Shown: positions 17,801 to 20,800 of the stretch, one piece after another | Position numbering within the stretch: position 1 is the first letter of the stretch | Layout: each line of letters starts with the position of its first letter | DNA from: Escherichia coli | Lineage (GTDB): Bacteria > Pseudomonadota > Gammaproteobacteria > Enterobacterales > Enterobacteriaceae | Assembly (NCBI RefSeq): GCF_003334335.1 | Contig: NZ_QOWQ01000030.1 | Length of the DNA: 64,000 bases | Reading direction: 5' to 3' (one strand) | Program-made: the position numbers

Positions 17801-20800
17801 CATGATCTCTTTCTCGATAATCTTGTTCATATAGGCAGCGGCTTGATTTTCATCTGTCGGGTAGCCTTCCATCTCTGGGGTGATGAACAAACGATATCCG
17901 CTGTAATCCGCTTTTCTTACCATCGTTACGGTCAACATGGCTGCGCCAGAGAGACGGGAGAGAACATAGGTGCCATTGGTTGTGGCGACATTTTCCACCG
18001 CAAAGAACGGCGCGAAGGAGCTGCCTTTACGACCATAATCCTGATCGGGAGCAAACCATACCGCTTCACCTTTCTTCAGTGCACCGACAATGCCGCGCAG
18101 ATTATTTCTGCCGATCATCGCTTTGTTAGAGCGCATGCGCCCACGGGTCTGCACCCATTCCATCAGCTGATTATTATGTGGACGATAGGTAGCCATCATT
18201 GGTTGGCACAGTCCCATCACGCGGCCGCCCAGTTCCAGCGACATAAAATGGACGCCGACAACCATTACGCCGCGATTTTGCATTTGTGCGCGTTTAAGGT
18301 TATCCAACCCTTCAACATCAAACCATTTACGTACGCGACTGTCGGGCCAGAACCATGCCATGCCGGTTTCTACCAGCGCCATGCCGAGTGAACGAAAGTT
18401 TTCGGCAATCATCTTCTCGCGTTCTTCCGCAGAATGCTGCGGGAAACAAAGTTCCAGGTTTTTACGGGCGATAGATTCACGACGTTTCAGGAATGGTCGC
18501 GCCATTGCGCCAATACGCGTGCCGAGAAAGCAGAGAACAGGATAAGGAAGCTGTACCCAAAGCCAGAGTACACCAAGCCCAAACCATGTGAGCCAGTAGC
18601 GAGGATGTAGAAACTCGCGGGAAAATTTGCATTGTGGAAACATAGTTACCTTCTGTAGATACGAATTGTTGTATCGCAGAAGATTCCATGTCGACAGCGG
18701 TACACTCAATTGGTTGGGCCATCATGTACGACAATGGTTCCTGTAAAGAGTGTAAAGACTAGTCAGGACATAACCACGAGGAGCATGAAGGCGGTATCTG
18801 TACTTTATCACTCGCTGACTGCTTTCAGCTACTGATTATTAATCGTGCAAAGTAAATATTTTTCCGTACACAACAGTCTTGCATTTAACATGCTGTTTTC
18901 ATTGATGCTTAGCAAAAATTGCCAGAGGTTAAGGATTGTCTTACTATTAAAGTGACTGAAGTTACAGGTTTTTTAGCGCGGCAGGAGGTTGAGCTATGAT
19001 TAATTTATGGATGTTTCTCGCCCTGTGTATTGTCTGCGTAAGCGGCTACATCGGTCAGGTACTGAACGTGGTATCGGCGGTCTCTTCTTTCTTCGGCATG
19101 GTGATCCTCGCTGCACTCATTTATTACTTCACCATGTGGTTAACTGGCGGTAATGAACTAGTGACGGGGATATTTATGTTTCTTGCCCCGGCTTGTGGCT
19201 TGATGATTCGCTTTATGGTGGGGTATGGCAGGCGGTAGTGGGTCAGGATGGCTCATTTGGGCAGGTGTTCACATCAGCATCAGACATGATTGTTCACCTG
19301 CCATGTGAAAGACGCTATCGCACAGGATGAATAAGATAATTCGCCTTTGTCGGAAAAGGGGGCGGCATTTCTTCTGTGAGGTTTAATGGTGGCGCATCTT
19401 CTCTCATCTTAAACAAAATCGCCTGTGATGGCTGAAGTTTTGTAGAGTGTGTGGTCGTCATCGCTGATGTTTTTTCAGTCTCTTTATAGCTCCTCTCACT
19501 TCCACCACCCGAAATGGAAAATGCAAAAACATTGCATGCCATAATAGAGACCAATAAAAATAAGCTGAAAAGTATTAAGTTTACTTTCATAGAAAGTTAT
19601 CCTGAAAATGGTTCACTGAGAACCTACGATGTTATGGCTGTATTTACATTTAATTAATCAGTATTTACATCGATATAATAAATGACATCTCTTTGTGGTA
19701 TATAAGAATAGTTCTCTGCGACAGGAAGCATATTCCTACAATTGTAAGACTAAAATACTTCTTGCGATAATAACTACAACTGTAAGATAACCCTTTCAAA
19801 ATGACCGTTGCTCTCTGATTTCTCATTTCATGCTCACCCAATATGATGGCGGCGTTTTCTAAAACTGTTAAAGAATGAGGTAAGTATGAAACGTTTAATT
19901 ATGGCCACGATGGTCACAGCAATTCTGGCATCTTCAACTGTATGGGCTGCTGATAATGCTCCGGTAGCGGCACAACAGCAAACTCAGCAAGTTCAGCAAA
20001 CCCAGAAAACGGCAGCGGCAGCAGAGCGTATCTCTGAACAAGGTTTATATGCGATGCGTGACGTGCAGGTAGCGCGCCTGGCTCTGTTTCATGGCGATCC
20101 AGAAAAGGCAAAAGAACTGACCAATGAAGCTTCCGCTTTGCTGTCAGATGACAGTACCGAATGGGCAAAGTTCGCTAAGCCAGGTAAAAAGACCAATCTC
20201 AATGATGACCAATATATTGTCATTAATGCATCTGTCGGAATTTCTGAGAGTTATGTAGCAACTCCCGAAAAAGAAGCCGCGATAAAAATTGCCAATGAAA
20301 AAATGGCGAAAGGGGATAAAAAGGGCGCAATGGAAGAGCTTCGCCTGGCCGGTGTTGGCGTAATGGAAAACCAATATCTGATGCCACTTAAACAGACTCG
20401 TAATGCACTTGCTGATGCGCAGAAACTGCTTGATAAAAAGCAATACTACGAGGCAAACCTGGCGCTTAAAGGTGCGGAAGATGGAATCATCGTCGATAGC
20501 GAAGCACTGTTTGTGAACTAATGCTGACAGGCAGTATATTGAGGTAAAGGATTTAACTCCCTCCAGCCGACAATTTTTTATGACCACAATACGACAGGTT
20601 GTGGTCATAAAATTATTTGGCGCTCGCGGTGCTATAAACTCGCATTTTATATTCCTCAAAGTAAACCGCAATAATCCCGTGTCATCACAAATCATTTATT
20701 ATGTTATGTTTTATGGTACGCTTTAAAAAGCGTAATCATACCCTTGCTTGTAAATCACCGGCGCTTCTTACAGTTGTAAGAATAACATCACAAATGTCGC

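What the first reader, a model, noticed from the sequence alone, without database searches (positions are those of the whole stretch)
19733..19750. Near-perfect EvgA-type inverted repeat upstream of yfdX
ttcctacaattgtaagac matches the TTCYTACA-N2-TGTARGAA consensus at 17 of 18 positions, about 135 bp upstream of yfdX in the ypdI-yfdX divergent region. Together with the frc and emrK sites, this indicates the EvgA regulon is wired directly into the neighbouring genes.
Basis: partly seen in the sequence, partly recalled or inferred. Interest (0 to 1): 0.3.

Follow-up and report, generated by a model that had tools for sequence, protein, structure and literature searches.

The report
Known EvgA binding site upstream of yfdX
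The 18-base inverted repeat is a real, conserved docking site for the acid-response regulator EvgA between the E. coli genes ypdI and yfdX, but it was already described in the literature, so it is ordinary.

Summary
Observation confirmed. Window 19733-19750 reads TTCCTACAATTGTAAGAC. It has one mismatch to TTCYTACA-N2-TGTARGAA and ends 135 nt before the yfdX ATG, in the ypdI-yfdX divergent region of an E. coli K-12-type chromosome. Sites with at most one mismatch are expected 0.003-0.006 times per 64 kb; two are present, this one and a perfect one upstream of frc.

Interpretation supported, but already known. Held papers cite Masuda & Church 2003 for EvgA-bound inverted repeats at yfdX and yfdWUVE. 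They cite Itou 2009 for direct activation of PyfdX, which is used as a standard EvgA reporter.

What this analysis adds is inferred, not shown:
- A second, weaker box lies 38 bp downstream (19771-19788).
- That proximal box, not the reported one, aligns with the box upstream of Buttiauxella yfdX.
- The proximal box shares a fixed layout with the frc, emrK, safA, ydeP and yegR promoters: box, N8, CA, N15, TCYKATT, then a -10-like hexamer about 54 nt after the box.
- The reported distal box shows most of that layout (not the CA) only when read toward ypdI. ypdI is co-induced with the EvgA regulon in two published arrays.
- A 38-bp duplication adding a third box occurs in 414 of 5426 complete E. 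coli genomes.

No transcription start data could be obtained.

The parts
19733..19750 (.). Distal EvgA box TTCCTACAATTGTAAGAC (the reported finding). MG1655 NC_000913.3 coordinates 2494538-2494555.
   Evidence: 1 mismatch. (palindrome I3); all 16 specified positions invariant in 13 E. coli sequences spanning 95-100% identity; contains the invariant core YTAC-N4-GTARGA on both strands. Coordinate mapping.
19771..19788 (+). Proximal, weaker EvgA box TAACTACAACTGTAAGAT, 38 bp centre-to-centre from the distal box. MG1655 coordinates 2494500-2494517.
   Evidence: 3 mismatches. (direct repeats D1 and D3: CTACAAYTGTAAGA twice, 38 nt apart). (core present on + strand); aligns without gaps with the Buttiauxella yfdX box; varies only at the N spacer, position 3 and the last base.
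19762..19771 (+). TTGCGATAAT, invariant segment of the inter-box spacer. It reads as an extended -10 (TGcGATAAT), with a -35-like TTGTAA at 19742-19747 inside the distal box. Function unresolved.
   Evidence: promoter-like site, 9 of 12, TG present; invariant in E. coli while the adjacent spacer bases vary; also present in the 'Yersinia vastinensis' locus, absent in Buttiauxella.
19797..19798 (+). CA dinucleotide at +9/+10 after the proximal box, shared by six E. coli EvgA-box promoters and by Buttiauxella yfdX.
19814..19820 (+). TCTGATT at +26..+32 after the proximal box. It resembles an EvgA half-site core and lies just upstream of the inferred -35 of the yfdX promoter.
   Evidence: TC is 6 of 6 at +26/+27, and TCTGATT is identical in frc. 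CTCTGAT is invariant from E. coli to Buttiauxella.
19842..19847 (+). -10-like TATGAT of the inferred yfdX promoter (inferred start near 19854). This places the proximal box centre near -75 and the distal box centre near -113.
   Evidence: TTCTCA-16-TATGAT.: -10-like hexamers at +53 to +55 in all six promoters. TATTCT at the same column in Buttiauxella. No experimental start site was obtained.
19701..19707 (-). TCTTATA (minus strand) at +26..+32 from the distal box read toward ypdI. Same element and spacing as in ydeP (TCTTATT).
   Evidence: PWM score in the top 0.55% of all window 11-mers at the single tested position. ATAAGAAT invariant in E. coli. Caveat: overlaps an RcsAB-box-like string.
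19675..19680 (-). -10-like TATTAT (minus strand) at +53..+58 from the distal box toward ypdI. Inferred ypdI start near 19668.
   Evidence: Inference only.
19886..20521 (+). yfdX coding sequence (periplasmic YfdX-family protein), the EvgA-activated gene.
19315..19590 (-). ypdI coding sequence (small lipoprotein; overproduction induces colanic acid and mucoidy), divergent from yfdX.
20765..20782 (.). Perfect EvgA box upstream of frc (yfdW), with the same downstream layout as the proximal yfdX box.
30758..30775 (.). EvgA box in the evgA-emrK intergenic region (2 mismatches). The canonical layout is present toward emrK.

Best explanation
The repeat is the upstream, high-affinity member of a pair of EvgA operators in the ypdI-yfdX control region.

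Established knowledge, cited: mild acid activates the sensor kinase EvgS, EvgS phosphorylates EvgA, and EvgA~P directly activates the yfdX promoter.

Shown here: the box matches the EvgA consensus far beyond chance and is invariant across sampled E. coli. A second, weaker box lies 38 bp downstream.

Inferred: an EvgA~P dimer binds each inverted repeat. The proximal box (19771-19788) sits about 75 bp upstream of the inferred yfdX start. That is the register shared by the frc, emrK, safA, ydeP and yegR promoters, and it is followed by a half-site-like TCTGATT next to the -35. The proximal box is therefore probably the direct activating position for yfdX. The reported distal box, centred near -113, most likely acts as a strong anchor that raises EvgA occupancy of the region. 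Because it is palindromic and has most of the same downstream layout toward ypdI (TCTTATA and a -10-like hexamer, but CT rather than CA at +9/+10), it probably also drives a divergent ypdI promoter.
For: Sequence match and rarity.

Locus identity and gene order (lpxP, yfdY, ypdI, yfdX, frc, oxc, yfdV, yfdE, evgS, evgA, emrK, emrY).

Literature: EvgA-bound inverted repeats at yfdX and yfdWUVE (PMC3720670). PyfdX directly activated by EvgA~P (PMC5706723). About 1000-fold induction of YfdX on EvgA overproduction (PMC6339873). yfdX at log2 6.97 in an evgS-constitutive strain (PMC4283999 Table S4).

Consensus verified on the safA, ydeP and yegR upstream regions.

Conservation: in 13 E. coli sequences the substitutions fall in the N spacers and the inter-box spacer, not in the specified box positions. 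A box in the same register upstream of yfdX is present in 4 of the 6 Buttiauxella loci within 3 mismatches of the E. coli consensus, and in all 6 within 3 mismatches of a pattern relaxed to the local TCTGACA half-site. There yfdX lies directly next to evgS and evgA homologues.

Shared architecture of six promoters anchored on the box.

ypdI co-induction with the regulon.
Against: No transcription start site for yfdX or ypdI was obtained. The Kim 2012 TSS table lists nothing between evgA and yfdY, and none of the searched EvgA-target b-numbers apart from evgA appears in it (that file was cut when stored). The Cappable-seq supplements had no hit. All positions relative to the start are therefore inferred from -10-like hexamers in AT-rich DNA.

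The primary papers (Masuda & Church 2003, Itou 2009) were not readable. I cannot say which of the two boxes they assigned or footprinted.

The 38-bp spacing (about 3.6 helical turns) puts the two boxes on different faces of the helix. That does not favour simple side-by-side cooperative binding.

The six 'independent' promoters include likely paralogous pairs (safA/ydeP, yfdX/frc), so the shared architecture rests on about four independent lineages.

The distal box read toward ypdI lacks the CA at +9/+10 (it has CT).

The many genes changed in the evgS-constitutive array include indirect effects, so ypdI induction there is not specific.
Confidence: 0.85

Rival explanations
1. The distal box is mainly the operator of a divergent, EvgA-dependent ypdI promoter. 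yfdX is activated essentially through its own proximal box. The control region would then be two back-to-back promoters, each with one box about 75 bp upstream of its start.
For: Read toward ypdI, the distal box is followed by TCTTATA at +26..+32 and TATTAT at +53..+58, as in ydeP and yegR. Read toward yfdX it has neither. The 38-bp out-of-phase spacing is natural for two separate promoters. ypdI is induced 5.5-fold alongside yfdX, yegR, ydeO and emrK under glutathione acid stress (PMC5811628), and by log2 2.75 in an evgS-constitutive mutant (PMC4283999 Table S4). Natural insertions between the boxes leave each box attached to its own side: the 38-bp duplication in 414 genomes and a 263-bp IS5-family fragment in strain ETEC6. 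Buttiauxella has a similar arrangement, with a second TCTGACA half-site 20 bp upstream of the yfdX box and a divergent hdeD-like gene.
Against: No start site for ypdI and no direct test. ypdI induction is much weaker than yfdX induction although its box is far better. The CA at +9/+10 is absent. The TCTTATA element overlaps an RcsAB-box-like string, which could explain its conservation instead. The 'Yersinia vastinensis' locus keeps a degraded distal box without ypdI. The held literature attributes the repeat to yfdX.
Confidence: 0.35
2. The distal box activates yfdX by overlapping the -35 of a different promoter. This promoter has an extended -10, TGcGATAAT, at 19763-19771 and a -35-like TTGTAA inside the box, with a start near 19778. 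EvgA would be centred near -37 and would touch RNA polymerase directly.
For: The promoter scan finds this site with 9 of 12 matches plus TG. TTGCGATAAT is invariant in E. coli and in the 'Yersinia vastinensis' locus while neighbouring spacer bases vary. LuxR/NarL-family activators often act from sites overlapping the -35 (general knowledge).
Against: The start would fall inside the proximal box, so EvgA bound there would be expected to hinder the promoter rather than help it. The arrangement is not shared by any of the other five EvgA-box promoters. It is absent in Buttiauxella, where the downstream promoter elements are conserved instead. The 18-bp spacer and weak -35 are suboptimal.
Confidence: 0.12
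3. The repeat is bound mainly by another NarL/FixJ-family regulator with a related half-site, such as RcsB (alone or with RcsA or GadE), rather than by EvgA.
For: Two RcsAB-box-like strings lie here: TAAGAATAGTTCTC at 19703-19716 and GAAGCATATTCCTA at 19725-19738. The second overlaps the left half of the box. RcsB binds and regulates the yfdX promoter in Klebsiella pneumoniae (PMC6394985). YpdI is linked to Rcs and colanic acid.
Against: RcsAB-like matches are not above chance across the window: 8 against 4.7 expected, and 13 of 100 shuffles reach 8. The Klebsiella RcsB pattern has no match in this intergenic region within 1 mismatch. The half-site order is the reverse of an RcsAB box. The exact box core occurs only at the four EvgA-linked places in 64 kb and upstream of the unlinked EvgA targets. 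yfdX induction follows EvgA and EvgS genetics.
Confidence: 0.04
4. The repeat is a chance palindrome without function.
For: None beyond the fact that short palindromes occur in AT-rich intergenic DNA.
Against: 0.003-0.006 sites expected per window at this stringency. The specified positions are invariant while the spacers vary across E. coli. The same motif recurs at frc, emrK, safA, ydeP and yegR. The literature also supports function.
Confidence: 0.01

Closest known systems
EvgA boxes of the E. coli K-12 EvgA regulon (ydeP, safA-ydeO, yegR, frc/yfdW, emrKY-evgAS). The 18-bp inverted repeat is attributed to Masuda & Church 2003 and direct regulation to Itou et al. 2009.
   Same: Same 18-bp inverted repeat, with invariant core YTAC-N4-GTARGA. 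The same regulator and signal are described for this very promoter. It is a member of this set, not just a resemblance.
   Different: It is the only promoter region in the set examined here with two boxes (38 bp apart). The reported box is not in the register shared by the other promoters when read toward yfdX; the weaker proximal box is.
BvgA binding sites at Bordetella promoters such as fhaB. BvgA is the Bordetella counterpart of EvgA (BvgS/BvgA is discussed alongside EvgS/EvgA in PMC5706723). Site details are from my own knowledge.
   Same: A NarL/FixJ-family response regulator binds an upstream high-affinity inverted repeat of heptad-like half-sites, with weaker sites closer to the -35. 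This resembles the strong distal box, weak proximal box and half-site-like TCTGATT seen here.
   Different: As I recall, BvgA dimers fill sites at about 22-bp (two-turn) intervals down to the -35. Here the intervals are 38 and 37 bp, which are not in helical phase. Cooperative filling has not been shown for EvgA in anything I could read.
RcsAB box (TaAGaatatTCctA; consensus from my own knowledge) and the RcsB site at Klebsiella pneumoniae yfdX (PMC6394985).
   Same: Related half-site letters (TCCTA and TAAGA), a regulator of the same protein family, and the same target gene family (yfdX) in Klebsiella.
   Different: The half-sites are in the opposite order and at a different spacing. Matches here are weak and not above chance across the window.
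Divergent promoters sharing or pairing activator sites. The evgA-emrK region in this same window is an example.
   Same: A palindromic EvgA box lies between divergently transcribed genes.
   Different: At evgA-emrK a single box shows the canonical layout toward emrK only. At ypdI-yfdX there are two boxes, each in register with one side.

Membership tests
EvgA box (operator of the EvgS/EvgA regulon) | 18-bp inverted repeat matching TTCYTACA-N2-TGTARGAA | tested here: met
   1 mismatch in 16 specified positions. Contains the core YTAC-N4-GTARGA common to all seven E. coli boxes examined.
EvgA box (operator of the EvgS/EvgA regulon) | Occurs more often than chance and specifically next to EvgA-regulated genes | tested here: met
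   2 sites with at most 1 mismatch against 0.003-0.006 expected. The core is found at only four places in 64 kb, all in the evg neighbourhood. Matching sites lie upstream of safA, ydeP and yegR elsewhere in MG1655.
EvgA box (operator of the EvgS/EvgA regulon) | Adjacent gene is induced by EvgA overproduction or EvgS activation | tested here: met
   By literature look-up, not by experiment here. yfdX is at log2 6.97 in evgS-constitutive S600I (PMC4283999 Table S4). About 1000-fold on EvgA overproduction (PMC6339873). PyfdX-yfp is induced at pH 5.7 (PMC5706723).
EvgA box (operator of the EvgS/EvgA regulon) | Direct binding of EvgA to this DNA (gel shift or footprint) | not testable with these tools
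   [quoted passage not shown] The primary papers are not held.
EvgA box (operator of the EvgS/EvgA regulon) | Conserved in genomes that carry evgAS | tested here: met
   Specified positions invariant in 13 E. coli sequences of 95-100% identity. The region is present in 5412 of 5426 complete genomes. Between genera, it is the proximal box, not this one, that is positionally conserved in Buttiauxella.
EvgA box (operator of the EvgS/EvgA regulon) | Register relative to the activated promoter, as derived here from six promoters: box, N8, CA, N15, TCYKATT, -10-like hexamer at about +54 | tested here: not met
   For the reported distal box read toward yfdX there is no match. The layout is met by the proximal box toward yfdX. 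It is partly met by the distal box toward ypdI: TCTTATA and TATTAT are present, CA is absent. This feature is my own derivation, not a published criterion.
RcsAB box | 14-bp TaAGaatatTCctA with TAAGA upstream and TCCTA downstream | tested here: inconclusive
   Sites with 2 and 3 mismatches at 19725-19738 and 19703-19716. The window-wide count is not above chance. The box itself has the half-sites in the reverse order.

The most novel reading that the evidence does not exclude
The near-perfect box is the operator of an unrecognised EvgA-dependent promoter for the divergent gene ypdI, and yfdX uses its own weaker proximal box. Overproduced YpdI switches on colanic acid and mucoidy without RcsF. 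Direct EvgA control of ypdI would make YpdI a connector from acid sensing (EvgS/EvgA) to the Rcs envelope-stress phosphorelay, much as the EvgA-induced SafA links EvgS/EvgA to PhoQ/PhoP. I found no paper that assigns ypdI to EvgA. PMC5811628 reports its induction without linking it to EvgA. PMC4283999 lists it among genes presumed to be indirect.
Probability: 0.3. Interest if true: 0.45.

Novelty: already known. Interest (0 to 1): 0.12.

Why it matters
The finding as stated re-identifies a documented regulatory site in the best-studied bacterium. It shows that the scan can recover true operators from raw sequence, but it adds no new biology.

The refinements could matter modestly to people who use PyfdX as the standard EvgA reporter, and to models of how EvgA activates transcription. 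They are:
- two boxes rather than one;
- a fixed box-to-promoter register across the regulon;
- a half-site-like element next to the -35;
- possible direct control of ypdI;
- natural variation in the number of boxes among E. coli strains.

If the ypdI link holds, it would suggest a route from acid sensing to capsule and Rcs signalling.

Tried and rejected
1. Primary papers. Masuda & Church 2002 (PMC151933), Ma 2004 (PMC523220), Eguchi 2007 (PMC2141842) and Thomason 2015 (PMC4288677) are not held.

2. Transcription start data. The Cappable-seq supplements had no hit. The Kim 2012 TSS table shows no start between evgA and yfdY, and none of the searched EvgA-target b-numbers apart from evgA appears in it; that file was cut when stored. 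No start site was obtained.

3. Literal searches of the box sequences in full texts found nothing. A broad EvgA plus ChIP/DAP-seq search returned only unrelated papers.

4. The genome-contig scan with YfdX returned only 9 loci. It missed other Escherichia species and Klebsiella, so the between-species footprint rests on Buttiauxella and one 'Yersinia vastinensis' contig.

5. Hairpin or terminator reading: rejected by inspection. The two arms are separated by only 2 nt and are imperfectly complementary, and the terminator scan found nothing here.

6. RcsB site reading: considered and ranked low.

7. A degenerate third EvgA box in the 20-bp inter-box spacer: inspected by eye, no resemblance.

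8. gadE upstream has no box within 3 mismatches. It could therefore not be added to the architecture comparison.
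Full report
**1. What is there**

Window 19733-19750 reads TTCCTACAATTGTAAGAC. It differs from TTCYTACA-N2-TGTARGAA only at the last base. The repeat finder reports it as a palindrome at 19731-19752.

A 601-bp stretch around it is 100% identical to K-12-type E. coli chromosomes and is present in 5418 of 5426 complete E. coli genomes. Annotation of an identical record and of MG1655 gives the gene order lpxP, yfdY, ypdI (-), yfdX (+), frc, oxc, yfdV, yfdE, evgS, evgA, emrK, emrY. The conversion is: MG1655 coordinate = 2514288 minus window coordinate.

The box ends 135 nt before the yfdX ATG and begins 142 nt from the ypdI ATG on the other side.

**2. Is it more than chance**

- With up to three mismatches the window holds four sites against 0.62 expected, and no shuffle reaches four.
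- With up to one mismatch it holds two, this one and a perfect one upstream of frc. The expectation is 0.003 (Markov simulation) to 0.006 (analytic). About 0.4 such sites would be expected in a whole 4.6-Mb genome.

- safA upstream: TTCTTACAGCTGTAGGCA, 1 mismatch.
- ydeP upstream: TTCTTACAGGTGTAGGCT, 2 mismatches.
- yegR upstream: TTCCTACATAAGTAGGAA, 1 mismatch.
- gadE upstream: no site within 3 mismatches.

All seven E. coli boxes share the core YTAC-N4-GTARGA. That core occurs at only four places in the 64-kb window, giving 7 strand-specific hits against 0.23 expected. The four places are the reported box, a second box 38 bp downstream, the frc box and the evgA-emrK box.

**3. What the literature already says**

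- PMC5706723 uses a PyfdX-yfp fusion as its EvgA reporter. It describes the promoter as 'directly activated by phosphorylated EvgA', citing Itou et al. 2009.
- PMC6339873 summarises earlier work showing about 1000-fold induction of YfdX on EvgA overproduction.
- PMC4283999 Table S4 gives log2 changes in an evgS-constitutive mutant: frc 8.37, yegR 7.75, yfdX 6.97, ydeP 6.02, emrK 5.03. The same paper notes that an EvgA binding site is found at all genes known to be directly regulated by EvgA.

The finding and its interpretation are therefore established knowledge. The primary papers themselves were not readable. I cannot say which base pairs they assigned.

**4. A second box, and which box is conserved**

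TAACTACAACTGTAAGAT lies at 19771-19788, with 3 mismatches and 38 bp centre-to-centre from the reported box.

Within E. coli I aligned 13 sequences spanning 95-100% identity.
- The 16 specified positions of the distal box never vary. Only one N-spacer base does.
- The proximal box varies only at its N spacer, at position 3 (toward the consensus in one strain) and at the last base.
- The first half of the 20-bp spacer between the boxes varies freely. Its second half, TTGCGATAAT, is invariant.

Between genera I scanned one genome per species with YfdX. This returned an E. coli representative, a 'Yersinia vastinensis' contig with the same yfdX-frc-oxc...evgSA island, and six Buttiauxella species. 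In Buttiauxella, yfdX (57-68% identical) lies directly beside evgS and evgA homologues, without frc or oxc.
- Four of the six Buttiauxella loci carry a box upstream of yfdX within 3 mismatches of the E. coli consensus: TTCTGACATATGTAAGAC in three and TTCTGACAAATGTCGGAC in one. The other two (B. agrestis and strain A111) match only a pattern relaxed to the local TCTGACA half-site, with 2 and 3 mismatches to that pattern and 4 and 5 to the E. coli consensus.
- In the alignment this box falls on the E. coli proximal box, not the distal one. There are no gaps from there to an invariant CTCTGAT and to a -10-like hexamer (TATGAT in E. coli, TATTCT in Buttiauxella).

**5. A shared register across the regulon (my inference)**

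I anchored six E. coli promoters on the end of their box: the yfdX proximal box, frc, emrK, safA, ydeP and yegR. They share the following layout.
- CA at +9/+10 in 6 of 6.
- T-C-[C/T]-[T/G]-A-T-T at +26..+32, with TC in 6 of 6. The sequences are TCTGATT in yfdX and frc, TCCTATT in safA and yegR, TCTTATT in ydeP and TCCTCTG in emrK.
- A -10-like TAnnnT hexamer starting at +53 to +55.

Buttiauxella yfdX keeps CA and TCTGATT at the same offsets. If the hexamer is the -10, the start lies about 66 nt after the box and the box centre lies near -75.

The +26..+32 element resembles the half-site core: TCYTA in E. coli, TCTGA in Buttiauxella. It would sit just upstream of the -35, which suggests an extra EvgA contact there.

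Caveats:
- safA/ydeP and yfdX/frc look like paralogous promoter pairs, so only about four lineages are independent.
- -10-like strings are common in AT-rich DNA.
- I could obtain no start-site data.

**6. Where that leaves the reported box**

Read toward yfdX, the distal box has none of this layout. It would be centred near -113 of the inferred yfdX promoter.

Read toward ypdI, it is followed by TCTTATA at +26..+32 (window 19701-19707) and TATTAT at +53..+58 (19675-19680).
- The PWM score of the +24..+34 segment is in the top 0.55% of all 11-mers in the window. The non-promoter directions of the other boxes score at random.
- The CA at +9/+10 is missing.

ypdI is co-induced with the regulon in two published arrays.
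- It rises 5.5-fold under glutathione acid stress, together with yfdX, yegR, ydeO and emrK (PMC5811628).
- It rises by log2 2.75 in the evgS-constitutive mutant (PMC4283999 Table S4).

Natural rearrangements occur between the two boxes and leave each box attached to its own side.
- A 38-bp tandem duplication creates a third, hybrid box in 414 of 5426 complete genomes, with up to three junctions per genome.
- A 263-bp IS5-family fragment is inserted between the boxes in strain ETEC6.

These observations fit two back-to-back EvgA promoters, each with its own box. They do not exclude the distal box also acting as a strong upstream anchor for yfdX.

**7. Alternatives**

- An extended -10 (TGcGATAAT, 19763-19771) with a -35-like TTGTAA inside the distal box is detected by the promoter scan and is invariant in E. 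coli. It would make the distal box a -35-overlapping activator site. However, the start would then fall inside the proximal box, and the arrangement is unique to this promoter and absent from Buttiauxella.
- RcsAB-box-like strings lie at 19703-19716 and 19725-19738. RcsB regulates yfdX in Klebsiella. But the matches are weak, are not enriched across the window, and have the half-sites in the reverse order relative to the box. The Klebsiella RcsB pattern has no match here.
- A chance palindrome is excluded by the statistics and the conservation.

**8. Verdict**

The site is already known, so interest is low.

The residual novelty is not in the finding as written. It lies in:
- the second box;
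- the fixed register across the regulon;
- the possible half-site next to the -35;
- the possible direct control of ypdI;
- the variation in the number of boxes among strains.

All of these are inferences. They need start-site mapping, footprints and box-specific mutations.

Noticed in passing
window 19733-19808; locus L014 184-277: A 38-bp tandem duplication (box plus spacer) gives three EvgA boxes: TTCCTACAATTGTAAGAC, a hybrid TAACTACAATTGTAAGAC, and TAACTACAACTGTAAGAT. Its junction sequence is present in 414 of 5426 complete E. coli genomes, with up to three junctions in one genome. The effect on yfdX or ypdI induction is unknown.
   Followed up: partly
locus L026 226-488 (strain ETEC6), corresponding to window about 19774: A 263-bp IS5/IS1182-family fragment with terminal inverted repeats (GGCTTTGTTGAATAAAT...) is inserted exactly between the two EvgA boxes. 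It is flanked by a repeated GATAATAAC. This is a natural separation of the distal box from the yfdX side.
   Followed up: partly
window 19762-19771: TTGCGATAAT in the spacer between the boxes is invariant in all sampled E. coli and in the 'Yersinia vastinensis' locus, while the adjacent 10 bases vary. It reads as an extended -10. No explanation was tested.
   Followed up: partly
loci L004-L009 (Buttiauxella spp.), about 7400-14900: Here yfdX lies directly next to evgS and evgA homologues. It is divergent from an hdeD-like gene, an hdeB-like gene and a glutamate decarboxylase gene. An EvgA-type box also lies upstream of the evgA homologue in some of these loci (for example TGACTACATGTGTAGGAA at L004 14821 and L006 14778). 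The local half-site is TCTGACA, and a second copy lies 20 bp upstream of the yfdX box.
   Followed up: partly
locus L003 (NZ_CACVAF010000001.1, 'Yersinia vastinensis'): This contig carries the whole yfdX-frc-oxc-yfdV-yfdE-evgS-evgA island. Identities to E. coli are 96% for Frc, 82% for EvgS and 94% for EvgA. It lies immediately after an arsC-like gene and has no ypdI. Horizontal transfer seems likely. Both yfdX boxes are degraded there, while the frc box is good with 1 mismatch.
   Followed up: partly
locus L010 (NZ_GG693475.1, Limosilactobacillus vaginalis scaffold, 241 bp): A 241-bp scaffold in a Lactobacillus assembly encodes the last 54 residues of YfdX, 100% identical to E. coli. This is most likely contamination of that assembly.
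   Followed up: no
window 19703-19716 and 19725-19738: Two RcsAB-box-like strings, TAAGAATAGTTCTC and GAAGCATATTCCTA, lie 22 bp apart on the ypdI side of the distal box. The second overlaps the box. They are not above chance across the window, but they are notable because YpdI is linked to colanic acid and Rcs, and RcsB regulates yfdX in Klebsiella.
   Followed up: partly
window 19640-19658 and 19661-19679: A direct repeat GTATTTACAT... occurs twice, 21 bp apart, in the region of the inferred ypdI promoter and leader. TTTACA is -35-like on the + strand. Not examined further.
   Followed up: no
window about 19400-19600 (ypdI) in other strains: Several complete genomes carry IS1 insertions within or next to ypdI (hits H2-H5). 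ypdI protein identity drops to 69% in the GTDB representative E. coli, while YfdX stays at 98%. ypdI therefore evolves much faster than its neighbour.
   Followed up: no
PMC4283999 Table S4 (supplement), rows near ypdI: In the stored text the annotation column of this table is shifted for some rows. For example, ypdI is labelled 'membrane component of ABC superfamily'. Gene names and b-numbers are usable, but the descriptions there are not.
   Followed up: no
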